A stretch of 63,790 nucleotides of DNA, counting the filler, from Aduncisulcus paluster (lineage: Eukaryota): the NCBI GenBank assembly GCA_024181965.1. It is 12 parts of 12 records of this genome, joined end to end, with 100 filler letters (N's around TTAATTAATTAA, not from the genome) between each part and the next. Parts side by side here need not be neighbours in the genome. Positions count along the whole stretch, not along the records: positions 1 to 9,073 come from BQXS01011345.1; 11 more parts are not named here. One strand, given 5' to 3'. Position numbers and translations under genes: made by a program. The stretch's first letter is position 1; each line of letters begins with the position of its first letter. The notes under the pieces were generated by a model that was not told the origin of the DNA, did no database searches, and saw only the letters and a program-made list of their open reading frames with translations. Shown here in pieces: positions 1-54,318 of the stretch.

Positions 1-1904
1 TCTTCTTCAATCAGTTTTTGCTTCCTTTCTTCTTCAGCTCTTTTGGCGTTTCTTTTCTGTTTCTCCTCTTCCTCCTCTGCAATATCTTCAGAGATAACCT
101 GTCCCTCTTCTTCGGTCGAACTTGACTCTACCACCTTCCGTTCTTCCTCCTTTTCTACACTTTCTTCTTCTTCCTCCTTCTCCTCCTCTTCCTCTTCTTT
201 CTCCTCTTCTTTCTCTTCTTCTTGATCATTCTCATCTTCTTGATCATTCTCCTCCTCTTCTTTTCCTTGCTGAGACTTGCCAACCTCCACACATACATAG
301 CTGCTCTTTCTATAACTTTCTCTCCGCTTACTATTTTTGACAATATTAACAACCGATTTCTTGAACGATTCAACTCCATTTTGACCCTCATCAAAGCTCA
401 GAAGTAAACAAGAATTCTCATGCATGTCTTTACCCATAATCTTACCCCTGGCACGAATATTCTCATAGGATTGCGGAAGAACAGAGAGACGAACAGTGTT
501 AGTTGACGAAGAGATTGAGAGTTTGTGGATCTCTGTATGGAATATCTCAACAATATCGTGAGGAATCACATCAGACGCCTCACCGTGACACTTGTACTTC
601 TCAACCTCAACAAAGAGAGACAAGGGGCTAATTAATAGTGATAAACACGTTCCACATTCGCCCTGACGGATTCCCTTGTCATCAGAAGTTATCTCTTTCA
701 CGTCGAAGAAAGAAGGAGAGAGAGAGAGAAGAGGAAGGGGTGGGAGAAGAGAAAGAGATTCAATGGCCTCGGATTTAGACATTTTCTTGTTTCCACTGGT
801 AAATAACTCTCTAAAGCCCTGCATCATGGCTTCCTCATGTGCATTAACATCTCCTTCGCCCTCAGAAATATCTCGAGATGTCCACCATTCACAGGATTGA
901 TTGAGCATCTGAGCGATAGTGGTGTTAAGCTCAACAATCACTTTTAACACACCTTTTCCGAAAGATGATACAGCAACTTGACTGAACAAGCGTTCAACGT
1001 TGGGGAAGGAATAGGGAGGAATGGAGAACAGTAAGGAGAGAGATGTATAGGGGGTAGTGAGAGAAGAAAAGCTAGAGGGAGAAAATTTCTTCTTCTTGAG
1101 ATTGGGGTTAGTTTTTATCGTACAACCACGACCTCCAAGACATCCATCCAAGGGAGAGACAACAGCACCATGTTCAAGCCGGAAAACAATTTCAAGGGCA
1201 CGAGCTTGCAGAATTACATCACAAGAACGGACTAAAATAAGGTGTAAACTGGCTAAAATAACAGCTGTTGCACTTGTAGCCGTGGCCAGATTCATTCGTA
1301 AGGTTTTGATAGAAACAGGAGGTTTCAGGAAGGCAAGAGCAACAAAAAGAGCATCTCTTCTACTGTTAAGCGAAAACCGTGAGTGAGCAGCAAGCCGAAG
1401 GAGTTGAGGAAAGGCAGTAGAGATCAACTGTTGCTTGTGCTGGGGGAACTCTGTAATACATGATGATATCAAGGAAATAAAAATACGGAGTGCCTCGGGA
1501 TCCAAAATTGAAGGTATCATTTGATCAATTGCCGTCAAAATGTGTCTAAGAAATGAAGATGGATCCAACAATACCTTTTTCGCAGAGCTTGAGGAAGAAC
1601 AAAAGATTGAGATAAGTTTGAATGTTCTATGAAAGAAAGAGGGAGAAGATAACTGTTGAACAAGCTGATCTTCAAGTTTTTTTGTTATTTTTGGGATTTT
1701 AGCTCCATTTGAAAAAGTTTTTATAAGTTTGGAAATTTGTTCGTCTTCATTCCCTTTTAAAATAGTAATTACCTTTAATAAAACAAAGAAAGAACAAATA
1801 GTGAGAAATGGGACGAAAATAAAAAGCAGACTCAAAACAATTGAGAGGAATAGAATTCAACCAAAGCAAAGATAGAGAACACATACATTCGTCGCAGTAA
1901 CCAT
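1..1904 (-). CDS. Spliced gene, 3'-truncated by the window edge: helical-repeat protein with acidic C-terminal region, possibly Rix1/PELP1-like
   Basis: Exon 1 1904-1887 (MVTATN), intron 1886-1773 (GTATGT...AAG, phase 0), exon 2 from 1772 in frame to position 1 (VITILKGNEDEQ...EEEKEEEE...KQKLIEE). Missing from the ORF track, consistent with having no stop inside the window. The family call is weak. Confidence 0.75.
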
Positions 1905-2216
1905 TTTAAATGATATTTAATATGGCTCTAGATTCTTGGCGAACAAAGACACAAGCAAAATGAAAAGCTTTTTCCAAATCAAAAAAACATTTTCCACCAA
2001 ACAATATTACCATCGTATTTAAATGAGACGCAAAAATTTGAATGTAAAAAACCTATTCTTCAATAAATACATATAATATGTTTTATGTAATTCATTTCCC
2101 ACCTTATACAGCGATCAAGAAACCATCGTTCGAATAGATAATCTTCAAATAGTAAAAACGCAATGATGGAAACAATAATAACAATTGATCCAATAATAAA
2201 TGCAATAAATAAATAT

Positions 2217-2534
2217 TTACGGCGATTCTTCATCCAAAATCATTTTGAGTTGCTTCATCCACAATTCTTCTTCTTTTCTTTCACTTTCAAGAAGATCAAT
2301 TATTTTAGCTTCTTTTTTCGTCAAATAGAGGGAAGTATCCTCCGGAAATGATGTGTCCTCGACATACAATGGAATTTTATCAAATTCCTGAGGATGCAAT
2401 CCATATTTCTCAATATAGTCAGAAATAGTTGTGTCTTTAACTGTTTTTTCTTCCACCGAATGTTTAGCTGTCGGTCCGGGAGTCAATGGGAGGTTAGATT
2501 GTGATTCATCAATAATTCGAGTACCAAGTGGCAT
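2217..2534 (-). CDS. Small hypothetical protein (105 aa); faint resemblance to APC13 (ESERKEEELW); may have a 3' intron adding LSIRTMVS
   Basis: ATG-started ORF with coding-like composition. The apparent stop lies inside CC|GTAAAT, followed by a T-rich tract ending GAAG. Confidence 0.55.
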   Translation of the reverse strand: MPLGTRIIDESQSNLPLTPGPTAKHSVEEKTVKDTTISDYIEKYGLHPQEFDKIPLYVEDTSFPEDTSLYLTKKEAKIIDLLESERKEEELWMKQLKMILDEESP

Positions 2535-3012
2535 AATAGAAGATTAATTGAATATAATAGGTTAATTGTTATTTTTAAATGAATTTTTAAATATGATTTT
2601 TGTCTATCTTCTTTGGAAGGGGACCAAAACACCAAAACACATTTTTTTTATTTTTTCGTTTTTTGGCCACCTTCCTATCCCCATTGTTAACCTTTATAAA
2701 ATGCTAAAAGTGAATCTTGTTATTTTATTTCTTTTTTCAATATATTTATCATCCATATTGTGTAGCTTAAGCTATCAAGTTTTTACGGTAAGTTGTGATA
2801 CTCCAACAGAGGAAATTATTCCTGTATTGGATGATACATTTTGCTTATCAGTTAAAATATACTCTTCAAATAATCTTTCTACAGGTACTGACAAAACACA
2901 ACATTACTCTTTAATGGNNNNNNNNNNNNNNNNNNNNAAAACACCAAAACACATTTTTTTTATTTTTTCGTTTTTTGGCCACCTTCCTATCCCCATTGTT
3001 AACCTTTATAAA

Positions 3013-5991
3013 ATGCTAAAAGTGAATCTTGTTATTTTATTTCTTTTTTCAATATATTTATCATCCATATTGTGTAGCTTAAGCTATCAAGTTTTTACGG
3101 TAAGTTGTGATACTCCAACAGAGGAAATTATTCCTGTATTGGATGATACATTTTGCTTATCAGTTAAAATATACTCTTCAAATAATCTTTCTACAGGTAC
3201 TGACAAAACACAACATTACTCTTTAATGGGGATAATTCCCGACATAATTAATCATTCTCCTGAACGATCTGCCAATTTAACAATCGATTCACTAACATAT
3301 CCAACGGATAATGAACTGTTTGTAAGTTCAGACCTTCCTGGAACTGAGACTGAAGAATGGCTCTTTCCTGTCACCGTATCCGCTCCACTGACAGCCATTC
3401 TGGAAGTTACACTGGCATCCACATCTTCATATATATCCATTGAACCATTATTCTTTGTTCTTGGTGTTAGTGGCATGATTATTGATAATGAGGGTATTTT
3501 CACTTGGCCCTATATTGGCTCTGGTGTCGATTCAATAGACCTCTCTGCGTATACTGGGAAATCTCACTTCGTGTCCGCCCCTCTGGATGCATCAATCAGT
3601 GCCCTATATCTCGATGATGTTCCATACTTATTTCTCAGTGCTACGTTATTTTCATCTGCTGAAGCTGCGACTGCAACAAAACCTAACCAAATAGAAGCCA
3701 TACTTCCCGATTTAACAGATTTTTCTGATCAATCATGTGGTGGAGCTGGTATGGATGTCATTATTGGAGTTGCTATTCTCAGTGAGGCTATTATCATTGG
3801 AACTGAAGATTATGGAGTAATCATGTTTTATGATGAAACTAAATCCTTGGTTAGTAAGCCCGATGTATGTTCGACGAAAGTATTTAATGGTTTCTCCATC
3901 CATCCAACAAATTCATACTCTGCTCCGCAACCCATTCTCTTTGAAAGCAAGAGCACTGTTAATTCTGCAACCCAATACAATGTCGCTGGCTGCATATCTC
4001 AGGCTCTTAATGCAGATTCCTCCAAAGTTGATGTTACTTCCTGTTCTTCTGAGACAATTAAGAATTACGATGCTCTTGGTGATGCCACGGCTTCTGATGA
4101 AGCCCAGCTGGCAGGTCCTATATTAGATTCAGATGGGTTTACTGTTACTGATCGATTTGATGATGATGGTTCAATTTCTGGTACTATGCGTGTCGTTTCT
4201 GCTGTTGCTCCACAATGGTTCCATACCGCCAAGATCGTATCCATTTGTGAAGATGACAATGGTTACCGTGTTTATACTTTGTTGTGGGATAAGGATGCAG
4301 AAACAACAGAATGGGATCTAGCCTTCACTTTCCCTTGGGATCTTCCAACTCCTTCTGACACCCATATCTTTGCCAATGACACTTCTGTGATAGTTCCTTT
4401 CTCCACTCCAGCAGAAACTCTCGCTGAAAAGGGTGCTGATGTGACAAAACCATTTACCATTCTTGGGATATTCACCACTTTGTCTCCTACTCAAATTCTG
4501 TATCTTGTGACAGATTCGTGTGTTCTTGTATCTGATTCGTACGGGTATTCTTGGCGAGTTCAGATGTGCATCGACGACGAGATCATTGATGCCATCGCTT
4601 CTTCTTCAGATTCTCTCGTTATATTGGCTAATTCTGGGGAGCGATATAGGGTATTTCCGAAGGCTCATACCCAAGGAGTGAGTACGAATTACTCGATTGA
4701 TTTGGATACATCTGTTACCAGTCTTATAGCCATGCCCAACAACGATTATCGGATTGTCTCCATTTCAAAGGGATCTGGAGATATTCATGACCTATTAAGT
4801 GTATCCGACGGGTTAAACAAGGAAGATTATGTTTTAATGAGTTATTTGGGTGGCGATTGTGAGATTACTTCGGTTGAACATCACTTCGAGGTGACTTCTT
4901 CAATTACTCGAATCAAACATCCATATTCATATGCATCTGGAAGCTTAATAGAGGATGATTCCTTACCTCGTCGCATTGTCCTTGATAAGAATGAGAGCTT
5001 TTCCTTCACTGTTGTTCTCTCTACCGCTTCAGCACAGCAAGAAGTACCTCATATCTCTGTTCTTTCCCATGATCCTGAGTTTATTGATGTTACAGTATCC
5101 ATGTCCTCAGAGCTGATTGCCATTGGAAAACAATACATTTATGAGGTCACAATCACTGAGTGTTCTGATCTCGACCTTTTATTGGGCAGTGGTGAAGATA
5201 TGTTCGCCACATCTGTCACAATTGGAATTGACAAGGCGTGTTTCTCGTATTATTATATTGAAGATAATTATACGGAATTCTTGAGTATGTTTACTATTCC
5301 TGTTATTATTGGTTGCCCTTCTTCTCTTGCTCTTGAGTTTGATGCCGAGACCTCTGGTGAAAAGTATCCAGCAAGTCTGCCCGAGGAAGGCATTCCTTCA
5401 TTTGCATTTGAAGATGATTTTTATCCCGTTTTCAATATTGTTGACAGTGTTGTTGGCACGTATGAGCTTTACACTGGAAATTATACTTTTACTATCATTG
5501 GCTCTGGGTCTTATGAAGATACTGTTGAATTATTCAGTGACGATGATAGAACTCAAATCAACCAAGCTACTTTCTCTCCTCTCGATAACTCCGTTACAAT
5601 GAACTCAGATAACCGTCTTGTCTTCAATTATGACACTTGTAGCATTGGATGGGCCTGTTTAAATGGATCTACATGTTATAATACCATTCCTAGGAAGATG
5701 GGTGAGAGTCCTGCACTTATCCTGAGGGTATTTGTTGAGACAAATGATGGAGAAAGTTATTGTAAACTCTCTCAAACCTTTGATATTCGATTATATGGAA
5801 CAAGATTTGAGTTTGTTTGGGCTGGATCATTTGCTGGTGGTACTCTAGCCATTTTATGTATTATTGTTGTGATCGCAGGGATAATAAGTTATCACAAATC
5901 TCAGCGAACGAAAGCAATTCCTGACGGGTTCGTGCGAAGAGTTGATAAAAACAACAAAGAACAGAATGTTCAAGTCATTATTTCAAAATAG
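3013..5991 (+). CDS. CATSPERG: CatSper channel auxiliary subunit gamma-like type I membrane protein (~992 aa)
   Basis: Signal peptide MLKVNLVILFLFSIYLSSILC, large ectodomain and one C-terminal TM. Motifs LPRRIVLDKNESFSF, IIGCP, FEDDFYPVFNIVD, YTFTIIGSG, IGWACLNGSTCYNTIP and SYCKLSQTFDIRLYG are collinear with the CATSPERG C-terminal half as recalled. The track ORF is inflated by a duplicated gap flank. Confidence 0.8.
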   Translation: MLKVNLVILFLFSIYLSSILCSLSYQVFTVSCDTPTEEIIPVLDDTFCLSVKIYSSNNLSTGTDKTQHYSLMGIIPDIINHSPERSANLTIDSLTYPTDNELFVSSDLPGTETEEWLFPVTVSAPLTAILEVTLASTSSYISIEPLFFVLGVSGMIIDNEGIFTWPYIGSGVDSIDLSAYTGKSHFVSAPLDASISALYLDDVPYLFLSATLFSSAEAATATKPNQIEAILPDLTDFSDQSCGGAGMDVIIGVAILSEAIIIGTEDYGVIMFYDETKSLVSKPDVCSTKVFNGFSIHPTNSYSAPQPILFESKSTVNSATQYNVAGCISQALNADSSKVDVTSCSSETIKNYDALGDATASDEAQLAGPILDSDGFTVTDRFDDDGSISGTMRVVSAVAPQWFHTAKIVSICEDDNGYRVYTLLWDKDAETTEWDLAFTFPWDLPTPSDTHIFANDTSVIVPFSTPAETLAEKGADVTKPFTILGIFTTLSPTQILYLVTDSCVLVSDSYGYSWRVQMCIDDEIIDAIASSSDSLVILANSGERYRVFPKAHTQGVSTNYSIDLDTSVTSLIAMPNNDYRIVSISKGSGDIHDLLSVSDGLNKEDYVLMSYLGGDCEITSVEHHFEVTSSITRIKHPYSYASGSLIEDDSLPRRIVLDKNESFSFTVVLSTASAQQEVPHISVLSHDPEFIDVTVSMSSELIAIGKQYIYEVTITECSDLDLLLGSGEDMFATSVTIGIDKACFSYYYIEDNYTEFLSMFTIPVIIGCPSSLALEFDAETSGEKYPASLPEEGIPSFAFEDDFYPVFNIVDSVVGTYELYTGNYTFTIIGSGSYEDTVELFSDDDRTQINQATFSPLDNSVTMNSDNRLVFNYDTCSIGWACLNGSTCYNTIPRKMGESPALILRVFVETNDGESYCKLSQTFDIRLYGTRFEFVWAGSFAGGTLAILCIIVVIAGIISYHKSQRTKAIPDGFVRRVDKNNKEQNVQVIISK

Positions 5992-6626
5992 TTTCACAGT
6001 TTTTACATCTATTTTATATTCACGTACAGTTGTACAATCATTGTAAGCTTGGTGCTTGATCGTGATAAAGAATTTTGTTCCTCCAACTCCCGATGGATGT
6101 CTGTTCCCAACTTGATGTTTTGGAATATATGAATCGCTAAAAAAAACGTATTTTTTAGGAGTTTTATTTGGGGGAGGGGCTCATCTAGCCCTGTTCTTGA
6201 CCTTAAGCAATGATCATTTATTTTTCACCCTGTATTATTTCATTTCGAGGCGGCAATATATGACGGAGCCACTTTTGTGCTTCGTACTATCTGCTTCAAG
6301 AAGATCTTCAAGTTGAAGTGGATCGGATTGGTTGGTGGGAGTCGGAAATAATAAAATGAATTTTTTCGAGTGTCAAATTCACACATAGATAATATAAATA
6401 TTAAGAAATAGATTAAATATATTAATAATATCTTCGTGGGCAAAAATTCCAACTTGGAAGATTGAATCTTCTTTCTAATAAAAAACTATTTTGGATCAAA
6501 AAAATAAAAATTTCTCTTTATATTAAAATAGATTATTCGGAATCCTTTCTAATTAGTACGTATCTTCAACTTTTCCCTTCTTCCAACTTTTTCTTTTTGA
6601 TTTCCTTACGATTACTTCAAGAAAAG

Positions 6627-9073
6627 ATGCAATTCTTTAACCTTTTTATTGTCTTTTGCTTAAGTTTCGTTATTTTCTGTTCGGCTGCTCCCGTTGAGTC
6701 CTCCTTCGAGTGTGACCTTTGTGAGTTCCTTGTGACCGAGCTTGAGGAGCGTTTCCTTCCTTCCATGACCGAAGAGGAATTCATTGCCGAGTTCGACAGT
6801 CTTTGTGACGAGATCCCTACTTTCTTTGCCATTGCTTGCAAGGCCGAGGTCGATCAGTATGGACCAACCATCTACCAAGACCTTCAGAATGGTTTGGAGC
6901 CTGACACCATCTGTGATGAGATCCACATGTGCCACGAGTCTTTGGTTGCCCCCGTTGAGGGTTCTGTTGAGTGCATTGCCTGTAAACAAATTGTTCAAAC
7001 CATCGAGGACAAATATGTTGACGGTATGCTTTACGATGACCTTTACGACCTTGTGATCGAGGAATGTGACAAGCTCCCAGAATGGATTGCCGTCGTGTGC
7101 GATTCTGAGGTTGATTACTACCTCCCACAGATGTGGACTATGCTTGTTGATGATCACATTGAGCCCCAAGAAATGTGTGCTCTTCTTGGTCAATGCAAGA
7201 AGTCTGCTGCCCCCAAGGGCAATGACGTCACATGTGAAGTGTGCGAGATCATTGTTGATGCTGTTGAGGACGCCTGGTTACCCAACATCACCTACCAAGA
7301 ACTCTACAACACTATCATGAACGACACTTGCCGTAAGCTCCCTCACGTCCTTGAGATTGCTTGTCAAGCCGAGGTTGATGAGTACTTGCCCGAGATCTAC
7401 TCCATGATGCAGAATGCTGTTGCCCCCAGCACTATCTGTGGTTTACTCACCCTCTGTAAGTCAGCTGCTGCTCCTGTTGAGTCCTCCTTCGAGTGTGACC
7501 TTTGTGAGTTCCTTGTGACCGAGCTTGAGGAGCGTTTCCTTCCTTCCATGACCGAAGAGGAATTCATTGCCGAGTTCGACAGTCTTTGTGACGAGATCCC
7601 TACTTTCTTTGCCATTGCTTGCAAGGCCGAGGTCGATCAGTATGGACCAACCATCTACCAAGACCTTCAGAATGGTTTGGAGCCTGACACCATCTGTGAT
7701 GAGATCCACATGTGCCACGAGTCTTTGGTTGAAGTTGTCAACGGAGACACCGAATGTACTCTTTGTAACTACATTGTTGCTTATGCTGAGAGTAAGTTCC
7801 TTCCTGAGATGTCATTAGAAGACTTTTTGGAGATCTTTGAGGGATTCTGAGAAGGTTACCTTCCTTCCTTCTTGGTTCCTGTGTGTGATACTCTCGTTGA
7901 CACTTATGCCANNNNNNNNNNNNNNNNNNNNATGAGATCCACATGTGCCACGAGTCTTTGGTTGAAGTTGTCAACGGAGACACCGAATGTACTCTTTGTA
8001 ACTACATTGTTGCTTATGCTGAGAGTAAGTTCCTTCCTGAGATGTCATTAGAAGACTTTTTGGAGATCTTTGAGGGATTCTGTGAAGGTTACCTTCCTTC
8101 CTTCTTGGTTCCTGTGTGTGATACTCTCGTTGACACTTATGCCACTGAGATCTACGAATGGTTGCAAAAAGAAGAAGATCCTTCTCACATCTGTGGTTTG
8201 ATTGATTTATGCAAAACTGCCTCAAAATTCTATTTAGCTGACAATGGAAGTGTTGGATGTGATGTTTGCGAGGTTATTGTCGACGCTGTTGAGGAGGCCT
8301 GGTTCCCTAATATCACTTATGAAGAGATCTATGATATTATCATGAACGACACTTGCCGTCGCTTGCCAACCTTCCTTGAGGTTGCCTGCCAAGCTGAAAT
8401 TGATGAGTATTTGCCCCAAATTTATGATATGATGAAGAATGCTATTGCTCCCGAGACTATCTGTCACCTTCTCGATCTTTGTGCGGACGCTTATATTCTT
8501 GTACGTCGCCAACCTCGTGAAGCTCCCGTTGAGTCCTCCTTCGAGTGTGACCTTTGTGAGTTCCTTGTGACCGAGCTTGAGGAGCGTTTCCTTCCTTCCA
8601 TGACCGAAGAGGAATTCATTGCCGAGTTCGACAGTCTTTGTGACGAGATCCCTACTTTCTTTGCCATTGCTTGCAAGGCCGAGGTCGATCAGTATGGACC
8701 AACCATCTACCAAGACCTTCAGAACGATTTGGAGCCTGACACCATCTGTGATGGAATCCACATGTGCCACGAGTCTTTGGTTGCCCCCGTTGAGGGTTCT
8801 GTTGAGTGCATTGCCTGTAAACAAATTGTTCAAACCATCGAGGACAAATATGTTGACGGTATGCTTTACGATGACCTTTACGACCTTGTGATCGAGGAAT
8901 GTGACAAGCTCCCAGAATGGATTGCCGTCGTGTGCGATTCTGAGGTTGATTACTACCTCCCACAGATGTGGACTATGCTTGTTGATGATCACATTGAGCC
9001 CCAAGAAATGTGTGCTCTTCTTGGTCAATGCAAGAAGTCTGCTGCCCCCAAGGGCAATGACGTCACATGTGAA
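6627..9073 (+). CDS. Multi-saposin-B (prosaposin/SAPLIP-like) polyprotein, at least 9 domains, 3'-truncated
   Basis: Signal peptide followed by repeated CxxC...C...C...PxxICxxIxxC units. The break at 7848-7931 is an assembly gap with a duplicated flank. Confidence 0.9.
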
Positions 9074-9173
9074 NNNNNNNNNNNNNNNNNNNNNNNNNNN
9101 NNNNNNNNNNNNNNNNNTTAATTAATTAANNNNNNNNNNNNNNNNNNNNNNNNNNNNNNNNNNNNNNNNNNNN
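9074..9173. other. Artificial contig linker (N + TTAATTAATTAA + N); also at 12608-12707, 17254-17353, 20532-20631, 36959-37058, 43669-43768, 46924-47023, 50186-50285, 54219-54318, 57602-57701, 61163-61262
   Basis: Identical 100-nt design with stops in all six frames; genes are cut at the linkers. Confidence 0.98.
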
Positions 9174-12600: not shown

Positions 12601-12707
12601 AAGTAGGNNNNNNNNNNNNNNNNNNNNNNNNNNNNNNNNNNNNNNNNNNNNTTAATTAATTAANNNNNNNNNNNNNNNNNNNNNNNNNNNNNNNNNNNNN
12701 NNNNNNN

Positions 12708-17239: not shown

Positions 17240-18187
17240 GCCTGTAATCGATGNNNNNNNNNNNNNNNNNNNNNNNNNNNNNNNNNNNNNNNNNNNNTTA
17301 ATTAATTAANNNNNNNNNNNNNNNNNNNNNNNNNNNNNNNNNNNNNNNNNNNNAATATATTAGATCTATTTGATGATACAATCAAAATCACTCCCAAATA
17401 CAGATGACACTTATAATTTACACATCATTTGAATACCCACAATATTATTATGTTCTCATTCAACCAGAAAAAACCTTTTTTTGAATGGCACAGGTTACAT
17501 CGATTTCTAAATTAATGTCGTATGAATCATAGTGTGAAAAATATTATTGCCCGGATCAATAAAAAATTAATAATAGTCCGGGTGAAGTGGAACTTCCAAC
17601 CAGCGGTGCCGACTGTAATTGAAATCAAAACAAACAAATAAAAATACGCTTGTAGTAATAAATTATGAACCTCGATTTATTTAAAACAGTGTTTCAGTAG
17701 AGATTCCAAGAAATCAGATTCTAGGATTCTTGTGACAACAACACAGGTAGCTTTTTAAATTTGCGTATATCGAATAAATGAACATGGAAACACATTGATA
17801 CAAATTGGATCAAGATTTTGAAATTGATAAATTTATGAATATCATATACCTCTGTACAAATATGAAGAATTCGATCCACTTGCTATACCCCATGAATGTG
17901 TTTGGCTGCGTTTGTAATTTGATCTATAAATTGTAATCCCAGACCACAGAAATATTAATGAAAATGAAAAAATCTTAATTTGTATGAATAGGAGTATTTC
18001 AATTTCCAAAAAAAAAAACTACTATGTCGCACTTTTGATTTTTTTTTTCGCTGAAATTGGAGTGCAATCTATAAAATCGTGCATTCATAACTTGATTTCA
18101 TTTCTACGTATGTTTTTCCTTTCTTGAAGATTTTATTTACGTACAATTTGAAAAATTTTGCACCCTTTGCCATATTTTGAATTAATT

Positions 18188-20531: not shown

Positions 20532-20632
20532 NNNNNNNNNNNNNNNNNNNNNNNNNNNNNNNNNNNNNNNNNNNNTTAATTAATTAANNNNNNNNNNNNN
20601 NNNNNNNNNNNNNNNNNNNNNNNNNNNNNNNA

Positions 20633-23245: not shown

Positions 23246-25057
23246 TCAACAAGCATATACAGTCAAAATACCATTAATATCTCCAACATAAAGCATTCGT
23301 CTTTTCTTGTCATACACAACACAAGAAGTCAGTATTCTGTCCACATATGCAAGAGGGACCATCGGAGTGAGTGTAGTAGTAGGGAGAAGAAACACAACGA
23401 GTTCACCTTCATCAATTTCAGAATATAGAGTACTTCCTGTTGCATCTGAGTCAGAAGAGGAGGAAGAATCGAAGAATGGAGAACAATATGTGTCAGATAT
23501 TACCACGGAATGGCTATGATCTGATTCTGGGGGAATGACATCAGACCTTGAGGCAATTGTTGACAGATCCTGGCAAATAAAGTCTTCACGTNNNNNNNNN
23601 NNNNNNNNNNNAACGAGTTCACCTTCATCAATTTCAGAATATAGAGTACTTCCTGTTGCATCTGAGTCAGAAGAGGAGGAAGAATCGAAGAATGGAGAAC
23701 AATATGTGTCAGATATTACCACGGAATGGCTATGATCTGATTCTGGGGGAATGACATCAGACCTTGAGGCAATTGTTGACAGATCCTGGCAAATAAAGTC
23801 TTCACGTCGACAAAAACCAATGAGTGAACCACAACAGTCGATTAACCCCGGCGTTGACGCATTAAGTCCAACGATTGGGAACGACCGTAAGATATTTCCT
23901 CTGAATGAGACCTGAATGCACGTGGAGGTGTTCATCAGGCAAAAAATGTCAGAACCCTGCGGGAACAAGAATTTTGTGTATGAAGAATCAATATTTACAC
24001 TCGCAATACATTGTTCCTTAGTGTTATCAGTTTCTTCACCTCCGAGAAGATCAAATATCTTCAATTGACCTCTTTCTTGTTTAAAAAATAAGCGATTACA
24101 ACAAACTTCAAGAAGAATAATCGCCCCTAGACGATCTTCAACATCAATATGCTGATGGCACACTCGTTTTCCGGTACAAATCCTCCATATGCTCATTTTT
24201 ATCGTCCAAATTATTTCAAGACGAGCTCCATGGGGTGGAAGCTCCATAATACAACCGTTGTCACAAGCTGGAGGCTCCTTAACATCCTCAAATGTCAAGT
24301 GAAGTCGTTTTCTCAGAGGCATCGATAAGATAGTTTCATTACCACGCCATTTATATCGAAGATTATGCTTTCTTTTGTCTTGGATAAGAAGATAACCATT
24401 AGACATTCGTAAATTGACTCTTTTATCCTCAGACATTCGGTAGAGTGGAGAAAACGTCATCGTGTCCCAAACTCGATATTTTTGGTCGATAGGAGTAAAA
24501 GTAAGAGCAAAAGATTGCAATTCATCCCATTCAACGAATCCAGGGGCTGTGATGCATCCACATTCACGAAATACATGGCATCCATGAATTACCTTCTGCT
24601 CGAGCAAAGAGAACTCAGGAATAAACCAAAATGAAATACCTTTTTGAGTAGAAAGAATATTTGAATAGCAAACAATAAAACCTCCTGATTTAGGATCATA
24701 CCACACGGAAGATATGCGATGAAAGGGTAAAGAATTAACGAAACACAAACGACGAAGACGAGAGAGGTGTATTTCAAATGAAAAAGCAACCCCAATTCCA
24801 TTTTCAGAGCAAACAATAACAGTGCGTTTCCCAAAAGTTATTGACACAATTGGAGATCGTTTTCGCATTTGTGGATGTGAAAAAGGATATTTCCCACGAA
24901 ATTCAAACATGTCATATGTTCCAAGTTTATATCCAATCGGTTCTAAATAATACTCTTTACCTCGGATAGATTTTGAAGTCCGTTTCCAAGAGCCGATCGA
25001 CCATTCATTTTCCAAAATACCAGAACCAAGAAAAAGTGAAAAGTTCCGACCATTCAT
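23246..25057 (-). CDS. WD40/beta-propeller-like protein of a conserved uncharacterised plant/protist family
   Basis: RLCFVN..RISSVWYD, PGFVEWD, YRVWD..LY, RLFFKQE..LKIFDL and terminal VVYDKKRRMLYVGDINGILTVY. Residues around 23396-23807 are duplicated by a gap artefact. Confidence 0.75.
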   Translation of the reverse strand: MNGRNFSLFLGSGILENEWSIGSWKRTSKSIRGKEYYLEPIGYKLGTYDMFEFRGKYPFSHPQMRKRSPIVSITFGKRTVIVCSENGIGVAFSFEIHLSRLRRLCFVNSLPFHRISSVWYDPKSGGFIVCYSNILSTQKGISFWFIPEFSLLEQKVIHGCHVFRECGCITAPGFVEWDELQSFALTFTPIDQKYRVWDTMTFSPLYRMSEDKRVNLRMSNGYLLIQDKRKHNLRYKWRGNETILSMPLRKRLHLTFEDVKEPPACDNGCIMELPPHGARLEIIWTIKMSIWRICTGKRVCHQHIDVEDRLGAIILLEVCCNRLFFKQERGQLKIFDLLGGEETDNTKEQCIASVNIDSSYTKFLFPQGSDIFCLMNTSTCIQVSFRGNILRSFPIVGLNASTPGLIDCCGSLIGFCRREDFICQDLSTIASRSDVIPPESDHSHSVVISDTYCSPFFDSSSSSDSDATGSTLYSEIDEGELVXXXXXXXREDFICQDLSTIASRSDVIPPESDHSHSVVISDTYCSPFFDSSSSSDSDATGSTLYSEIDEGELVVFLLPTTTLTPMVPLAYVDRILTSCVVYDKKRRMLYVGDINGILTVYAC

Positions 25058-27231: not shown

Positions 27232-28203
27232 TCATTCAATTTTATCTGAGAAAAGATAAACTTGGTGTTCAACAGTCTTTTTAGCGACAGTACAAGCGAC
27301 GGAAACGTTGTTTCTGATGAGAGCAATGTTGGCCTTAAGAGCGCTACCACCGGACAGATCATTGACACGTTTCAATAAGAAAGGAGTAACATCCTTACCT
27401 TTAATACCCAATTCCTCGCATTCTTTCAGAGCTCGAGAGATATGAAGGTCAATGACGGCTGAAGGGATTTCATCTTTCTCAGGGATAGGATTAGCAAGTA
27501 AGACACCAGAAGACAACGTTTCGAAGTGAGTGCATATTATATCAGCCGCTTCAGAGGCATCAGCAGCGACCAGAGAACTCTTAACCCCACTTGACCTTGA
27601 ATAAAATGCAGGGAAATCTTCACATCCGACTGATAAAACACACACACCATTCGTCTCCAAAGCCTCAACGGTCTTTGGAATATCGAGAATAGCCTTAACA
27701 CCAGCACTAACAACACAAATGGGACAAGAAAACAGAGCCTTCAAATCAGCGCTTACATCCCAATCAGGTCCACGATGGACACCTCCACAACCACCAGTAG
27801 CAAATACTCGGATTCCAACAAGGGTAGCAATAGCTGAAGTACAAGCAACAGTTGTCCCAGCACTGTATTTCTTTGTCAAGATATAGGGAAGATCACGAAT
27901 GGAACTTTTCATTACAGTTCCTTCCCTTTTTCCAAGGATTTCAAGACTTTCTTCGTTGAGACCAACCTTGATGCGCCCATTGATGATTGCGATGGTAGCA
28001 GGAACACAGTCATTGTCAATACAAATCTTTTCGAGGGATTTCGCCGTTTCAACATTGGCTGGATATTCCATACCATGACTAATTACGGTAGATTCAAGAG
28101 CAACGATTGGAATAGAATGAGATAATGCGTGAAGAACATTAGGATGAATATCAACATATTTCATGATTCTTTTTGTAAGTTGAGCTCCGGGAAACAGATC
28201 CAT
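27232..28203 (-). CDS. psuG: Pseudouridine-5'-phosphate glycosidase (stand-alone)
   Basis: VALESTVISHGMEYP, PATIAIINGRIKVGL, ATGGCGGVHRG, DVSADL, GVKAILDIPKT, VTPFLL. Confidence 0.95.
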   Translation of the reverse strand: MDLFPGAQLTKRIMKYVDIHPNVLHALSHSIPIVALESTVISHGMEYPANVETAKSLEKICIDNDCVPATIAIINGRIKVGLNEESLEILGKREGTVMKSSIRDLPYILTKKYSAGTTVACTSAIATLVGIRVFATGGCGGVHRGPDWDVSADLKALFSCPICVVSAGVKAILDIPKTVEALETNGVCVLSVGCEDFPAFYSRSSGVKSSLVAADASEAADIICTHFETLSSGVLLANPIPEKDEIPSAVIDLHISRALKECEELGIKGKDVTPFLLKRVNDLSGGSALKANIALIRNNVSVACTVAKKTVEHQVYLFSDKIE

Positions 28204-36938: not shown

Positions 36939-37058
36939 AACAAAGGAATTAACCGAGANNNNNNNNNNNNNNNNNNNNNNNNNNNNNNNNNNNNNNNNNN
37001 NNTTAATTAATTAANNNNNNNNNNNNNNNNNNNNNNNNNNNNNNNNNNNNNNNNNNNN

Positions 37059-38286
37059 CAACGTAGTGGTGAACGAAGGCACGCTTCTGGTACATAAGAT
37101 CGAACTTGTGGTCCATACGAGACCAAACCTCGGCGATGGCGGTGGTGTTGCTGATCATAAGACAGCTTCTCTGAACCTTGGCAAGGTCACCTCCGGGGAC
37201 AACGGCGGGGGGTTGGTAGTTGATACCAATCTTGAAACCAGTAGGACACCAGTCAACGAATTGGATGGTACGCTTGGTCTTGATGGTGGCAACGGCGGTG
37301 TTAACATCCTTAGGAACGACATCACCACGGAACATAAGAACACAAGCCATGTACTTACCGTGACGGGGATCACACTTAACCATCATGTTAGCGGGCTCGA
37401 AAACAGAGTTGGTGAGCTCGGCAACAGAGAGTTGCTCGTGATAGGCCTTCTCAGCAGAGATGATAGGAGCGTAAGAGCAGAGAGGGAAGTGGATACGAGG
37501 GTAGGGAACCAAGTTGGTCTGGAACTCAGTAAGATCAACGTTCAAAGCACCATCGAATCTGAGGGAAGCAGTGATGGAGGAAACACACTGAGCAATAAGC
37601 CTGTTAAGGTTGGTGTAGGTGGGACGCTCAATGTCAAGGTTACGACGGCAGATGTCGTACATAGCCTCGTTATCAACCATGAAAGCACAGTCAGAGTTCT
37701 CAAGCATAGAGTGAGCAGAGAGAATGGTGTTGTAAGGCTCAACAACAGCAGTGGAAAGAACGGGAGAGGGGTAGACGGCGAACTCAAGCTTGGACTTCTT
37801 ACCGTAGTCGACAGTAAGACGCTCAAGAAGGAGGGAACCGAAACCGGAACCGGTACCACCACCGAAGGAGTGGAAGACAAGGAAACCTTGGAGACCAGTA
37901 CAGTTGTCAGCGAGCTTACGGATACGGTCGAGAACAAGGTCAACAATTTCCTTACCAATGGTGTAGTGACCACGAGCGTAGTTGTTGGCAGCATCTTCCT
38001 TACCGTTGACAAGTTGCTCAGGGTGGAAGAGTTGACGGTAGGCACCAGCACGGACCTCATCAATAACAGTGGGCTCAAGATCGACCATGACAGCACGGGG
38101 AACGTGCTTACCGGCACCAGTCTCAGAGAAGAAAGTGTTGAAAGCGTCGTCACCACCACCGATAGTCTTGTCAGAGGGCATCTGACCATCGGGTTGGATT
38201 CCGTGCTCCAAACAGTAGAGTTCCCAGCAAGCGTTACCGACTTGAACACCAGCCTGACCAATGTGGATTGAGATAACTTCACGCAT
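37059..38286 (-). CDS. TUBA: Alpha-tubulin (3'-truncated)
   Basis: [21 protein letters not shown]40 in MPSDKTIG; strong C-ending codon bias. Confidence 0.99.
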
Positions 38287-38717
38287 TTTTTAGAATTTTA
38301 CAATATAAAGATTGTGCAAAAAAAAAAAAAGTAAAATATTGAACAAATTCTATGTTTCTCAAAACTTTAAATAGTAACAAAGCATAAGACAATAATATCA
38401 TCGAGGATATCTTTTTCCCTGTAAAACAAGTACTACTTGTTAATCAAACTAGTAGTTAATTACTTTTTTGAAAAGAGGATGATCCTCCAAGTCTTGGAGT
38501 CCAAGATCCGATGTTGTGAGCCATATAATTAACTTGTATGAGGATAAATGATTCCGTACAAATGTTAAACATTAATACTTCTCGTTGTTTTCTGAATATA
38601 ACTCACTAAGCCTGTGACATTTTCAACTTGAAATTGTTGAACAAGAATCGAGTTTTTCTGGCCACTATCTCCCTTTTATTTTGTTTGAATTGAAGTAATT
38701 TTCTCATAATAAGTATT

Positions 38718-39374
38718 ATGTCAAGTATAATTGGTCAAAAAGCACCCCATTTCTGTTGTAGGGCTCTGATGCCTGATTTCAGTTTCAAGACGATTTCAAA
38801 CAGCGATTACAAAGGAAAATATCTCATTATCATGTTTTATCCTATGGATTATACTTTTGTCTGCCCTACTGAGATTATTCGTCATTCTGAAGCTGTAGAA
38901 CAATTCCGTAAAGAAGGTGCTGAAATTGTTGTTGTCAGTACTGATAGTGAGTATGCACACCTGTCCTGGGCTTCAACTCCCCGGATGAAAGGAGGGTTAG
39001 GTTCTTTGAAGATGCCTATGCTCTCCGACAAAAATTTAAGAATGAGCAAGGCTTTTGGGTGTTTATTGGAGGAAGAAGGAGTTGATCTTCGTGCAACTTA
39101 TATCATTAATCCCGATGAAGTGGTTGTTTCCGCCACAATTAACAATCTTCCCGTTGGAAGGAACGTTGACGAAACTCTGAGGTTACTTCAAGCTTTTCGA
39201 TATGTAGATACCCATCAAGGTGAAGCTATTCCATGTGGATGGACACCTGGAAGCCGTACAATCAAGACAGATCCGGTTGGAAAGCTTGAATGGTTTGCGG
39301 CTGAGGATAAGAGTTCAGATAAGAGAAGATATGGAAAGGATGAGATAAAATCTGATCGCCCAAAGAAATTATAA
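38718..39374 (+). CDS. Typical 2-Cys peroxiredoxin (Prx1/AhpC) with an IPC resolving motif
   Basis: FYPMDYTFVCPTE, GGLG, GRNVDETLRLLQAF, GEAIPCGW. Confidence 0.95.
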   Translation: MSSIIGQKAPHFCCRALMPDFSFKTISNSDYKGKYLIIMFYPMDYTFVCPTEIIRHSEAVEQFRKEGAEIVVVSTDSEYAHLSWASTPRMKGGLGSLKMPMLSDKNLRMSKAFGCLLEEEGVDLRATYIINPDEVVVSATINNLPVGRNVDETLRLLQAFRYVDTHQGEAIPCGWTPGSRTIKTDPVGKLEWFAAEDKSSDKRRYGKDEIKSDRPKKL

Positions 39375-39707
39375 TCATAACCCTTGGATAAATGTGACTG
39401 AAAAATAATACTCCGAGAATTATTTTCCTTCTGTATTGGCAATAATATCGATAAATATGTTTACTTGGCAATGATTCATAGATATTGTATTCTTTCAAAA
39501 TATAGATGAACAAATTTCGAATTTCTTTTCTCTCTTTAATATCCACATAAAAGTCTAAATGACTCTCTGTATCATATGCAAAATCTCTTATTATTGGCAC
39601 TCCCAAGCATACCTCCACGTATCCAAATACTTATGATAATAAATTATTATTATTAATAATAAATGTTTTAACTTAAAAGTTTTAAGCTTTTGTTAGTTCT
39701 TATGTTT

Positions 39708-41231
39708 TCACTCAATCAATGATCTTGAATCCCAAAACTCTGATTTTGGTATATCACGAATGCTTGACCGTCGTTCAATGTGAAAATCTTGCAAAGATTC
39801 AACAATATTTTGTTTCATTCCAGAATATGTTGTCTTGAACAAGGGGATTTCGTATGTTGTTCCACTTTCACCGAGTCTCTGAACAGACAAAGCTGGAGTT
39901 CGAATTGTTGCATCTTTGTATGAGAATACATCTTTCCTGTGTTTATCCACCATCTCCATTGGCATATCATCCATTCTGATGATTGAAGGACTCGATTGAG
40001 ACGGATGTGACGAGGGACTTTTTGGATATTGTTGTCCTGTTTGTTGTTCGGATGTTGGATCACTTATCCACACAATATCTCCACCGAGAACACCCTCGTC
40101 CCTTTCCATTTTCTGTCCATGGCCATCTGGAGTGGACTTTTCAACTGATTCAGTTTGTTGTGAAGTGCACAAACATATTCCTTTCACAACTCTAACATAC
40201 ATCTTTGACAAATCACTGACTTTTTGATTGAAAGCAGCCTGTTCTGCGTTCTTCCTCCTCATGATGGCATAGTGTTGTTTCCATAGAGTCAACCCAGTGT
40301 TAAGGGAACGGATTCTTTCAATACGACGGAGACGAGGAGCAACAATTTCGTTAAACATTTTCACACGAGCAGCAGTAATCGAATAAGCATTTCTCCAATA
40401 TGTAAAATAGAACTTTAGCATTGAAACTGCACGATTACGAACAATAATAGATTCCAATACATGAAAATGCTCACTATATCGACGCCAATTATCCAGACAG
40501 TGAGTCAAAAGACAATGATTGCTCACCTTATTAAGAATGGAAGCAACCGACTTCATTTGTGAAGTTTGATGATCAATTATATGTTTACAGTGTAATTTAA
40601 GCGATACTATAACCCTACTTTTCACCTTTTCATTCCACAATTGTCGAAATTTTTCCCTCTCTTCTAAATTTATCAGAATCTCTCTTTTAAATTGGACAAA
40701 ACAATATTTGCGCAATAAATTATGATTATAGTGAGTAATAGCCTGCTGATATCTCAGCTTTACACGTTGTCTGAGCTTCTCTTTCCTTTCTGCAATTTCT
40801 TGCTCATGTAATCTACGTAATCTGGCCTTTTCTTTAAGAGCAAATGTTAATTTCTTTTTCTCCTCTTCATCTTTTCGTTTTTCTTCTTCTAATACTTTCT
40901 TTCTTCTTTCTTCAGCAAGTTTTCGCCTTTCTTGCATGTTTTTACGCATTTGAGCATGGTCAATCTTGGATTTAAAACGAGAAGAGGAGGAAGGAGTTTT
41001 AGGGGCTGTTTGCCGAATTGGGGGGTTGGAATCTTCCTTTGGAATCTTATGCGAAGGTTGAGGAGTTGTTTCTTCCAATTCTTTATCATCAATATGAGGC
41101 AGTGCTTTCTTTGGAGTCGATAATCTCGACGGAGGTGGTATTCTTTTGGTGATACTTTGTGTTTTTTCCGTTTCAAGACATTCCATAAATGATGATAGGA
41201 TTGAAGACCTATCCCCACTTTTTAATGGCAT
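39708..41231 (-). CDS. CCDC191/Sfi1-repeat-like coiled-coil protein
   Basis: MQERRKLAEERRK coiled coil, AITHYNHNLLRKYCFVQFK, and periodic L...W repeats (LDNWRRY, FTYWRNA, LTLWKQH). Confidence 0.6.
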   Translation of the reverse strand: MPLKSGDRSSILSSFMECLETEKTQSITKRIPPPSRLSTPKKALPHIDDKELEETTPQPSHKIPKEDSNPPIRQTAPKTPSSSSRFKSKIDHAQMRKNMQERRKLAEERRKKVLEEEKRKDEEEKKKLTFALKEKARLRRLHEQEIAERKEKLRQRVKLRYQQAITHYNHNLLRKYCFVQFKREILINLEEREKFRQLWNEKVKSRVIVSLKLHCKHIIDHQTSQMKSVASILNKVSNHCLLTHCLDNWRRYSEHFHVLESIIVRNRAVSMLKFYFTYWRNAYSITAARVKMFNEIVAPRLRRIERIRSLNTGLTLWKQHYAIMRRKNAEQAAFNQKVSDLSKMYVRVVKGICLCTSQQTESVEKSTPDGHGQKMERDEGVLGGDIVWISDPTSEQQTGQQYPKSPSSHPSQSSPSIIRMDDMPMEMVDKHRKDVFSYKDATIRTPALSVQRLGESGTTYEIPLFKTTYSGMKQNIVESLQDFHIERRSSIRDIPKSEFWDSRSLIE

Positions 41232-41812
41232 TGTAGGTGTATTTTATGAATATTTATGATTTTGTAATAACGACAAAACTGTCTATTGCAATTTCCATCA
41301 TTGATAAGTTTTGTATGCGTGACAAAACAATATTTATCTGAATAATCCTTATCTAATACTTTCTATTTGTTATTTTGGTGGCTGAGATCACAAACTTTGT
41401 GGCAATTGAACTTCAATCCATTGAATGGCCGTTAGTTTGAAAAACTTTTTATATTAGACTAAAAAAAATGTCACGGAATGGAATAGATTCTGAATAGAGA
41501 TTACAACTTTGAATGCAATTCTTCTTCGCTCTTATAGATACATGGCATGGCCCAGCCGGCTGCGACAGATTTCTGCCATGTGTAAAAAGGGAATAAAAAT
41601 ATGGGATAAATTAATTCTTTGAAAAATATGCAAAAATAAAATAAAATAAATAATCATTCAAAACAATCTGAGATTCTGGCAAAACCCTGCCATTTTGCTA
41701 CCCCATTGTTAGAACGTATGTATTTCCAATATTTTTTCATAATTCGTCTTATTTTTTTATGATTTTATTGTGTTCTAATTGTCTATATTATTTCAACACA
41801 AGACATCAAGAA

Positions 41813-43668: not shown

Positions 43669-43768
43669 NNNNNNNNNNNNNNNNNNNNNNNNNNNNNNNN
43701 NNNNNNNNNNNNTTAATTAATTAANNNNNNNNNNNNNNNNNNNNNNNNNNNNNNNNNNNNNNNNNNNN

Positions 43769-46923: not shown

Positions 46924-47023
46924 NNNNNNNNNNNNNNNNNNNNNNNNNNNNNNNNNNNNNNNNNNNNTTAATTAATTAANNNNNNNNNNNNNNNNNNNNN
47001 NNNNNNNNNNNNNNNNNNNNNNN

Positions 47024-50185: not shown

Positions 50186-50285
50186 NNNNNNNNNNNNNNN
50201 NNNNNNNNNNNNNNNNNNNNNNNNNNNNNTTAATTAATTAANNNNNNNNNNNNNNNNNNNNNNNNNNNNNNNNNNNNNNNNNNNN

Positions 50286-53828: not shown

Positions 53829-54318
53829 GGTATTTCCAAATTCATTCAATAAATGTTCGTTTCTAACTGCCATGGTCTTGTTCAACAAGTTGTTTGTTCG
53901 TATCTTAGTGAATAAATCATTTTGTTGTGGGTTACATTGGGATTTTCTTTGACTATGCTAACTGTTGCATGCTATTATCTGTCTCTTCTTCGATTCGTTC
54001 CCCAAGATCATGAGCATCACTATGATAGTGATTCTTTTACGTTTGAGTGGCTTCTTGGTGACAGTACAAACCTCGTTCCATTGAAATATTGGCATGAAAG
54101 TGTTTTGGATCGTTTTATTGTGTTGATTGTTGTTTGTCATGTATAATTTACCCCGATATTAGGCTCTGTCTCCTTGTGTCATTCGTAAGTCAACTTTACG
54201 GGATTACTTTGGAATTATNNNNNNNNNNNNNNNNNNNNNNNNNNNNNNNNNNNNNNNNNNNNTTAATTAATTAANNNNNNNNNNNNNNNNNNNNNNNNNN
54301 NNNNNNNNNNNNNNNNNN

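What the first reader, a model, noticed from the sequence alone, without database searches (positions are those of the whole stretch)
3013..5991. CatSper-gamma homologue in a probable metamonad flagellate, suggesting a CatSper-type Ca2+ channel complex
Seen: signal peptide, ~930-aa ectodomain, a single TM, and the ordered motifs LPRRIVLDKNESFSF / IIGCP..LEFD / IPSFAFEDDFYPVFNIVDSVVG..YTGNYTFTIIGSG / IGWACLNGSTCYNTIP / SYCKLSQTFDIRLYG-TM. Known (recalled): mammalian CATSPERG has the collinear PERIFLDKG..YSF / FIGCP..LAFD / MPCFLFRDIFYPFFLIQD..GSYVLLVVGGG / IEWLCLENAPCYDNVP / TYCNYQLTFLLHIHG-TM, and CatSper subunits are reported only patchily outside animals. Inference: this organism keeps a flagellar CatSper complex, or uses the subunit independently. 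I know of no description of this in metamonads.
Basis: partly seen in the sequence, partly recalled or inferred. Interest (0 to 1): 0.9.

Follow-up and report, generated by a model that had tools for sequence, protein, structure and literature searches.

The report
CatSper-gamma homologue in a protist
An intron-free gene of an AT-rich protist, probably a fornicate metamonad, encodes a true but very divergent relative of the gamma auxiliary subunit of the sperm calcium channel CatSper, which adds a lineage to a patchy distribution already reported for another metamonad.

Summary
Window 3013-5991 (+) is an intact 992-aa ORF with an N-terminal hydrophobic leader, a long ectodomain and one C-terminal membrane helix, and all the quoted motifs are present.

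Homology to CatSper-gamma is solid for residues ~650-935:
- Pfam CATSPERG_C scores E 3.4e-14, above its cut-off.
- Mouse CATSPERG2 matches at E 3e-14.
- A family HMM built without the query scores E 7e-66.
- 102 of 103 family rows carry CATSPERG_C, and none carries a beta or delta/epsilon C-domain.
- The model's best structural match is the gamma chain 7eeb_F.

The N-terminal ~620 residues show no significant sequence similarity to the family.

The host looks like a fornicate metamonad from one marker only. Its alpha-tubulin is nearest to Chilomastix, and that gene sits on another contig with similar codon usage.

The novelty claim fails. [quoted passage not shown]

Whether a pore exists here could not be tested, because no genome is held and the window is 12 unrelated contigs joined by linkers.

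Verdict: a new member of a known kind, of modest interest.

The parts
3013..5991 (+). Whole ORF of the CatSper-gamma homologue (992 aa plus stop), with no intron needed
   Evidence: Translation. A family HMM built without the query hits this frame alone of 208 frames, E 7.3e-66.
3013..3084 (+). Probable signal peptide (aa 1-24, MLKVNLVILFLFSIYLSSILCSLS)
   Evidence: Hydropathy peak at aa 1-26 and a helix in both models. The cleavage site is inferred; no predictor was run.
3085..4848 (+). N-terminal ectodomain of unproven fold (aa 25-612), at the position of the NTD and beta-propeller of animal gamma
   Evidence: No Pfam hit. hhalign against the family gives probability 2%. phmmer against 102 family members returns 0 rows. 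pLDDT is mostly under 50, with 80-85 only at aa ~480-550. Leads only: the VIA alignment to 7eeb_F runs from model residue 68 to 937, and the language-model hits are all CatSper auxiliaries at 0.75-0.81.
4849..5319 (+). Ig-like beta-sandwich domain (aa ~613-769)
   Evidence: Pfam CATSPERG_Ig-like covers aa 651-741 at E 7.7e-6, 26.3 bits against a cut-off of 27. The region lies inside the phmmer alignment to mouse gamma. pLDDT is about 90 or more for most of aa 650-740. Model residues 613-771 align to Ig-like domains at Z 7-9.5.
5320..5808 (+). CATSPERG C-terminal ('stem') domain (aa ~770-932)
   Evidence: Pfam PF22846 covers aa 793-930 at E 3.4e-14, 53.6 bits against a cut-off of 27.6. pLDDT is mostly above 90. 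The family's near-invariant G767, C768, P805, N850, C882, C888 and C917 are all present.
5809..5886 (+). Single transmembrane helix (aa ~933-958)
   Evidence: Strongest hydropathy peak, 2.73. Modelled as helix 934-967.
5887..5988 (+). Short basic cytoplasmic tail (aa 959-992)
   Evidence: Sequence HKSQRTKAIPDGFVRRVDKNNKEQNVQVIISK.
2626..2937 (.). Assembly artefact: a 292-nt exact copy of 2938-3229 followed by a 20-N gap. It creates a false N-terminal extension of the ORF.

Best explanation
The gene encodes a type I membrane glycoprotein that is a very divergent member of the CatSper auxiliary subunit gamma family. Shown here: its membrane-proximal Ig-like and stem domains and its single C-terminal helix are homologous to those of mouse CATSPERG. 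Inferred: by analogy with the mouse complex, the helix docks on the voltage-sensor domain of a CatSper-type pore subunit in the flagellar membrane, and the ectodomain joins paralogous beta, delta and epsilon-like subunits in an extracellular canopy over a Ca2+ channel that tunes flagellar beating. The host is an intron-poor eukaryote of about 38% GC, most likely a fornicate metamonad related to Chilomastix. This is a lineage distinct from Carpediemonas, where the complex has already been reported.
For: Homology:
- Pfam CATSPERG_C scores E 3.4e-14, 53.6 bits against a cut-off of 27.6.
- phmmer matches mouse CATSPERG2 (7eeb_F, 9ubw_F) at E 3e-14 over aa 650-931.
- Of 1.84 billion representatives, 103 score E<=1e-3, the best non-self at 29% identity and E 2e-30.
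- An HMM of 100 homologues without the query scores 216 bits, E 7.3e-66.

Gamma rather than its paralogues:
- CATSPERG_C is found in 61 of 61 and 41 of 42 scanned rows, with no CATSPERB_C or CATSPERD-E_C among all the families listed.
- Foldseek ranks 7eeb_F first (1.6e-26), ahead of 7eeb_H (5e-15), 7eeb_G (2e-13) and the beta chains (2e-9).
- VIA gives Z 15.8 with 502 residues aligned for 7eeb_F, against Z 11.1 with 344 aligned for beta.

Native gene:
- It has no introns. Its RSCU correlates at r 0.79 with the other ORFs of the window.
- It shares a 9-kb contig with intron-free saposin genes.
- It sits on a long, unplaced branch of the family tree and is not nested in any clade.

Host: the alpha-tubulin data.

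Mechanism, from the literature: canopy subunits beta to epsilon sit over the CATSPER1-4 pore, and beta anchors to CATSPER4 through its single TM helix (passages of bioRxiv 10.64898/2026.08.06.743317, and of PMC9205950). That gamma pairs with CATSPER1 is recalled, not checked.
Against: - No pore subunit (Ion_trans) or other CatSper auxiliary was found among the 23 other long ORFs or the 208 frames of the window. The window is only 12 short contigs, and no genome is held.
- The N-terminal ~620 aa, which form the canopy roof in mammals, show no significant similarity to the family. An apparent match at conserved alignment columns was no better than for shuffled sequence.
- Two family cysteines are replaced, A787 and S796.
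- The Ig-like Pfam score is 0.7 bits under its cut-off.
- The host placement rests on one conserved gene on another contig, and the tree holds only one named metamonad.
- An OLA1 search gave no relative above 60% identity, and its best named hits were plants, green algae and a ciliate.
- Expression and localisation are unknown.
Confidence: 0.62

Rival explanations
1. A stand-alone gamma-like surface protein. The organism keeps the gamma-type ectodomain protein for another role, such as adhesion or a scaffold for a different channel, and has no CatSper pore.
For: The N-terminal two-thirds are unrecognisable by sequence. A conserved cysteine pair is lost. The protein sits on a very long branch, 1.8 changes per column. 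No other CatSper gene was seen in the window.
Against: The stem domain and TM helix, which contact the channel in the mouse structure, are the best conserved parts. In Carpediemonas, gamma occurs together with alpha, beta and delta (PMC8516963). The window samples only about 63 kb of the genome, so finding nothing else in it says little.
Confidence: 0.2
2. The host is not a metamonad but some other intron-poor, AT-rich protist lineage.
For: Only one marker was used, and alpha-tubulin is known (recalled) to resolve deep splits poorly. Of the 25 reference rows in the tree, only one is a named metamonad. OLA1 has no hit above 60% identity, and its named best hits are plants, algae and a ciliate.
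Against: The alpha-tubulin is 91.4% identical to that of Chilomastix caulleryi, 3 to 5 points above the animal sequences among the 120 hits listed. The three-row clade has 97/90 support. Gene density and the lack of introns fit a fornicate, though they are not specific to that group.
Confidence: 0.3
3. The contig is a contaminant, or the gene was recently transferred from an animal or another CatSper-bearing eukaryote.
For: The assembly is highly fragmented and its contigs are concatenated with linkers. Read coverage could not be compared between contigs.
Against: GC3 of 0.31 and RSCU r 0.79 match the other contigs. The ORF is uninterrupted. The best non-self hit is only 29% identical. The protein is not nested in the 26-row clade that holds the rows scanned singly and found to carry animal-type NTD or beta-propeller domains.
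Confidence: 0.05
4. It is a beta, delta or epsilon paralogue, or a pre-duplication ancestor-like form, and not gamma proper.
For: The language-model search lists beta, gamma, epsilon and delta clusters at nearly equal scores, 0.91-0.95. The four subunits share one architecture: chains E, G and H of 7eeb all match the model.
Against: Only the gamma Pfam models hit. 102 of 103 family rows are gamma by Pfam. The gamma chain is the best hit by sequence and by structure, with a clear margin.
Confidence: 0.04

Closest known systems
Mouse CATSPERG2, chain F of the CatSpermasome (PDB 7EEB) and of the CatSper dimer (9UBW)
   Same: Type I topology. The Ig-like domain, stem domain and single TM helix are collinear. 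It is the best structural match, Z 15.8 with 502 residues aligned. The GCP, FxPxF..D, WxC..SxC and YC motifs are conserved.
   Different: Only 15-18% identity in the structural alignments. The N-terminal NTD and beta-propeller are not recognisable by sequence. The cysteine pair at positions 787/796 is absent. The gene has no introns and belongs to a unicellular organism.
[quoted passage not shown] 2021, PMC8516963)
   Same: A CatSper auxiliary subunit in a free-living fornicate metamonad. This is the same kind of finding as the present one (passage seen).
   Different: This is a different organism: Carpediemonas has 57-59% GC (Table 1), this window 34-43%. The nearest tubulin is that of Chilomastix. 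I could not identify the Carpediemonas protein among the unnamed hits, so their relationship is untested. Here only gamma has been seen.
CATSPERB, CATSPERD and CATSPERE (the paralogous canopy subunits)
   Same: The same overall build of beta-propeller, Ig-like domain, stem and TM helix. All three match the model, and they are close in language-model feature space.
   Different: Their Pfam C-domains do not hit this protein or any of its 102 homologues. Their structural scores are lower.
CatSper complexes of non-animal eukaryotes (Thecamonas, Allomyces, Aurantiochytrium; Cai, Wang & Clapham 2014)
   Same: A patchy presence of the complex in flagellated unicellular eukaryotes.
   Different: These lineages are not metamonads. 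The 2014 paper itself is not held. I know it only through citations in PMC8516963 and PMC7935092, and through the species list in PMC5362262.

Membership tests
CatSper auxiliary subunit gamma (CATSPERG) | C-terminal stem domain (Pfam PF22846 CATSPERG_C) above the curated cut-off | tested here: met
   53.6 bits against 27.6, E 3.4e-14, aa 793-930. A family HMM built without the query scores 216 bits.
CatSper auxiliary subunit gamma (CATSPERG) | Ig-like domain before the stem (PF22851) | tested here: met
   Pfam gives E 7.7e-6, but 26.3 bits is 0.7 bits under the cut-off of 27. The region is inside the phmmer alignment to mouse gamma from aa 650. It is modelled with confidence and aligns to Ig-like folds at Z 7-9.5.
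CatSper auxiliary subunit gamma (CATSPERG) | Beta-propeller domain (PF15064) | tested here: inconclusive
   No Pfam hit; only 24 of 103 family rows have one. hhalign probability is 2%, though the one local match falls in the propeller of P0063. phmmer returns 0 rows. pLDDT is low. The VIA alignment range 68-937 and atlas scores of 0.75-0.81 are leads only.
CatSper auxiliary subunit gamma (CATSPERG) | N-terminal domain (PF22840) | tested here: inconclusive
   No Pfam hit. Only 17 of 103 family rows have one, so it does not define the wider family.
CatSper auxiliary subunit gamma (CATSPERG) | Type I topology: leader, large ectodomain, one C-terminal TM helix, short tail | tested here: met
   Hydropathy scan and sequence; helices 2-18 and 934-967 in the model. 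No dedicated predictor was available.
CatSper auxiliary subunit gamma (CATSPERG) | Closer to gamma than to beta, delta or epsilon | tested here: met
   as set out under the best explanation.
CatSper auxiliary subunit gamma (CATSPERG) | Conserved family cysteines | tested here: inconclusive
   C743, C768, C882, C888 and C917 are present. The pair at columns 787/796 is replaced by A and S; at column 796, C is found in 91 of 96 rows. Both members are lost together, which fits a lost disulfide. That is an inference.
CatSper channel complex | Co-occurrence with pore subunits CatSper1-4 and with beta, delta and epsilon in the same genome | not testable with these tools
   No genome is held for the window. 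None were found in the 12 contigs of the window.
CatSper channel complex | Physical association with the pore, and flagellar localisation | not testable with these tools
   This needs an experiment. No partner sequence was available for a complex prediction.
Metamonada (host assignment) | Phylogenetic placement of host genes within Metamonada | tested here: inconclusive
   A single-gene alpha-tubulin tree groups the window with Chilomastix caulleryi at 97/90, but it has one named metamonad among 25 reference rows. OLA1 is uninformative.

The most novel reading that the evidence does not exclude
A second fornicate lineage, Chilomastix-like and distant from Carpediemonas, retains a working CatSper complex. 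The channel would then be ancestral to Fornicata and lost repeatedly in Kipferlia, diplomonads and others. Its origin would move from the apusozoan-opisthokont ancestor, the view stated in PMC7935092, back towards the last eukaryotic common ancestor. The unrecognisable N-terminal two-thirds could then be a lineage-specific canopy that senses different cues.
Probability: 0.35. Interest if true: 0.5.

Novelty: new member of a known kind. Interest (0 to 1): 0.3.

Why it matters
CatSper is usually described as a sperm channel that arose in the common ancestor of apusozoans, animals and fungi (PMC7935092). Each independent occurrence in a deep-branching flagellate bears on whether the complex is far older and was repeatedly lost, or was transferred between lineages. 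A second metamonad lineage with the gamma subunit would strengthen the Carpediemonas report of 2021. It would also offer another unicellular system for asking what CatSper does outside sperm. On its own, one auxiliary subunit in a fragmentary assembly is an incremental data point.

Tried and rejected
Searches and models that gave nothing:
- The word-index search with the whole protein found only the protein itself.
- Single-sequence AlphaFold gave mean pLDDT 31.6, which is unusable.
- There are no tRNAs and no Rfam family in the window.
- The bacterial-type promoter and terminator scan does not apply to a eukaryote.

N-terminal domain:
- hhalign against the family gave probability 2%.
- phmmer against 102 family members returned 0 rows.
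- The apparent agreement at conserved MAFFT columns (15 of 17) was matched by shuffled N-terminal sequences (12 of 15 up to 17 of 24, and one run misaligned), so I reject it as evidence.

Family tree of the C-terminal region: built from the 74 of 103 rows with at least 75% coverage, by the quick method. The query sits on a long, unplaced branch, so no sister group can be named.

Host identity:
- OLA1 gave no hit above 60% identity and a mixed set of taxa.
- I noticed TTCATAA-like upstream motifs by eye but did not test them.

Sequencing runs:
- No RNA holder is listed, and the run kinds are guesses, so nothing can be said on expression.
- Run X1 showed no contig over the ORF, although the index says it holds 0.96 of the sampled words. 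The tool warns that a filter drops some records.
- A 3258-nt contig of run X2 covers 3078-6335 with 1 differing letter. It comes from the same sample as X1, and possibly from the sample the window was assembled from, so it is not independent support.
- Coverage could not be compared between contigs.

Closed or unavailable:
- The whole genome.
- The search of earlier findings.
- Cai et al. 2014, which is not held.
- Supplements. The full taxon list behind 'all other sampled metamonads' in PMC8516963 may be in them; I saw only Table 1.

Not in print, within the library searched: 'CatSper' with 'metamonad' returns 4 records, namely the two versions of the Carpediemonas paper and the two versions of an apusomonad paper. 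'CatSper' with 'Chilomastix' returns 0. For 'CatSper' with 'Trichomonas' (14 records) and with 'Naegleria' (10 records), I saw nothing in the listed titles and abstract starts that reports subunits in those taxa, and I did not open most of these papers.
Full report
**The window.** The 63,790 bases are not one stretch of chromosome. They are twelve contigs of 2.5-16 kb joined by N44-TTAATTAATTAA-N44 linkers, which carry stop codons in all six frames. The finding lies on the first contig, window 1-9073. That length matches the 9073-base contig recorded for the database copy of the protein (P0002). Only the genes on 1-9073 are true neighbours:
- an unannotated ORF at 3-1520 (-);
- a small ORF at 2217-2534 (-);
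- the gene in question;
- two saposin-repeat ORFs at 6627-7850 and 7943-9121.

The contigs look like one genome. GC is 0.34-0.43. The codon usage of each long ORF correlates with that of the rest (r 0.41-0.88), and the CatSper-gamma ORF has r 0.79 and GC3 0.31. The lowest correlations belong to tubulin and saposin, which have high GC3. The window holds eukaryotic genes (alpha-tubulin, RRN3, PHD finger, protein kinase, OLA1/YchF, LMBR1), all as uninterrupted ORFs.

**The observation.** Window 3013-5991 (+) gives a 992-aa protein with every quoted motif in the stated order. The two strongest hydrophobic segments are the N-terminal leader (aa 1-26) and aa ~933-958, which is followed by a basic tail of 33 residues. 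There are nine N-glycosylation sequons. The longer ORFs from 2566 or 2593 arise because a 292-nt exact duplicate flanks a 20-N scaffold gap. I read this as an assembly artefact and keep 3013 as the start.

**Homology.**
- Pfam: CATSPERG_C at E 3.4e-14 (53.6 bits, cut-off 27.6), and CATSPERG_Ig-like at E 7.7e-6 (26.3 bits, cut-off 27).
- Solved structures: the only significant hits are mouse CATSPERG2 in 7EEB and 9UBW, E 3e-14, in one alignment over aa 650-931.
- HMMER over 1.84 billion representatives: 103 proteins at E<=1e-3 and 44 at E<=1e-10. The best non-self hit is 29% identical at E 2e-30.
- Pfam on the query and its 102 non-self hits: CATSPERG_C in 61 of 61 and 41 of 42 rows; the Ig-like domain in 55 of 103; the beta-propeller in 24; the NTD in 17. 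There is no beta-type or delta/epsilon-type C-domain, and CATSPERB_2nd appears weakly in 2 rows.
- An HMM built from 100 of these homologues, without the query, hits only this frame among the 208 frames of the window, at 216 bits and E 7.3e-66.

**Structure.** With the 103-row alignment, AlphaFold2 gives mean pLDDT 62.5. Confidence is above 90 over most of aa 650-970, 80-85 at about 480-550, and under 30 at about 180-360. Foldseek ranks the gamma chain 7eeb_F first (1.6e-26), then chains H and G of the same entry and the beta chains. VIA-align gives Z 15.8 with 502 residues aligned over model 68-937 for 7eeb_F, against Z 11.1 for beta and at most 9.5 for unrelated Ig-like domains. The protein is therefore a gamma-type CatSper auxiliary subunit in its membrane-proximal half.

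**The N-terminal half.** Residues 27-645 alone give nothing significant: hhalign probability 2% and no phmmer hit against the 102 relatives. Matches at conserved alignment columns looked striking, but shuffled sequences did as well, so I discard them. The language-model search of this part lists only CatSper auxiliary clusters, at 0.75-0.81, which the tool rates as a lead only. Whether a beta-propeller is present stays open.

The family's cysteines at the query's positions 787 and 796 are replaced by A and S.

**Host.**
- OLA1 has no relative above 60% identity.
- The alpha-tubulin on contig 37059-43668 is 91.4% identical to that of Chilomastix caulleryi and 91.0% to an unnamed sequence. Animals give 86-88% among the 120 hits listed of 7283.
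- I built a tree of the window plus 25 of those hits. I chose 27 and dropped two for short alignments. It groups the window with Chilomastix at 97/90.
- This is one conserved gene with one named metamonad in the tree. It supports a fornicate metamonad as the best guess, no more.
- In the family tree of the C-terminal region (74 of 103 rows), the protein is a long, unplaced branch. It is not nested in the clade that holds the members with animal-type domains. That argues against recent transfer or animal contamination, as does the lack of introns.

**Literature.**
- Salas-Leiva et al. [quoted passage not shown] They say the subunits were previously known only in opisthokonts and three other protists, and are absent from the other metamonads they sampled.
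- Their Table 1 lists Trichomonas, Monocercomonoides, Kipferlia, Spironucleus, Trepomonas and Giardia. Carpediemonas has 57-59% GC, so this window is a different organism.
- Passages describe beta, gamma, delta and epsilon as an extracellular canopy over the CATSPER1-4 pore. Each is anchored by a single TM helix, and gamma-gamma contacts link neighbouring dimers.

**Mechanism.**
- Shown: the topology and the homologous Ig-like, stem and TM module.
- Inferred: the helix docks on a voltage-sensor domain of a CatSper-type pore subunit in the flagellar membrane, and the ectodomain joins a canopy. The channel would admit Ca2+ to change the flagellar beat, perhaps in gametes as suggested for Carpediemonas.
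- The main rival is a stand-alone surface protein in a lineage that has lost the pore.

**Verdict.** The homology is real and specific. The host assignment is plausible. The complex is untested, and the kind of finding is already in print for another metamonad.

Noticed in passing
window, whole (linkers at 9074-9173, 12608-12707, 17254-17353, 20532-20631, 36959-37058, 43669-43768, 46924-47023, 50186-50285, 54219-54318, 57602-57701, 61163-61262): The window is 12 separate contigs joined by N44-TTAATTAATTAA-N44 linkers. Gene order across the linkers is artificial, and several ORFs are cut at contig ends, for example alpha-tubulin at 37059.
   Followed up: yes
window 2626-2937: A 292-nt exact duplicate of 2938-3229 is followed by a 20-N gap. 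It is probably two contig ends that were never merged, and it falsely lengthens the ORF at its 5' end.
   Followed up: yes
window 6627-7850 and 7943-9121: Two ORFs of tandem saposin B-type domains with near-identical internal repeats, probably one gene broken by the 20-N gap at 7912-7931. Contigs laid on them sum to word depths of 1e4-2e5 in runs X1 and X2, against 166 for the contig over the CatSper-gamma ORF. Two runs of another coded organism hold parts at 95-99% identity. This may be a very abundant transcript or a multi-copy family.
   Followed up: partly
window about 6143-6230: A stretch of about 90 nt downstream of the CatSper-gamma stop has high contig depth in X1 and X2, with unlike sequence on both sides. 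It may be a dispersed repeat or a small RNA. There is no second copy in the window and no Rfam match.
   Followed up: partly
window 37060-38286 (-): An alpha-tubulin gene, cut at the contig end. Its highest identity is 91.4%, to Chilomastix caulleryi, and it groups with that sequence at 97/90 in a small tree.
   Followed up: yes
window 27232-28203 (-): A complete pseudouridine-5'-phosphate glycosidase-type gene (Pfam Indigoidine_A, E 4e-111). Its origin was not examined.
   Followed up: no
window 43721-45094 (-), 45526-46971 (+): Two ABC-2-type membrane proteins (ABC2_membrane_3) on one 3.2-kb contig, in divergent orientation.
   Followed up: no
window 23246-25057 (-): This ORF matches Pfam DUF7899 just above its cut-off (72.5 bits against 70). 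A 20-N gap lies inside it at 23592-23611.
   Followed up: no
upstream of the ORFs starting at 28203, 41231, 41759 and 45094: TTCATAA or TCATA-like motifs lie 13-22 nt before several start codons. This was seen by eye in the listing and was not tested against chance.
   Followed up: no
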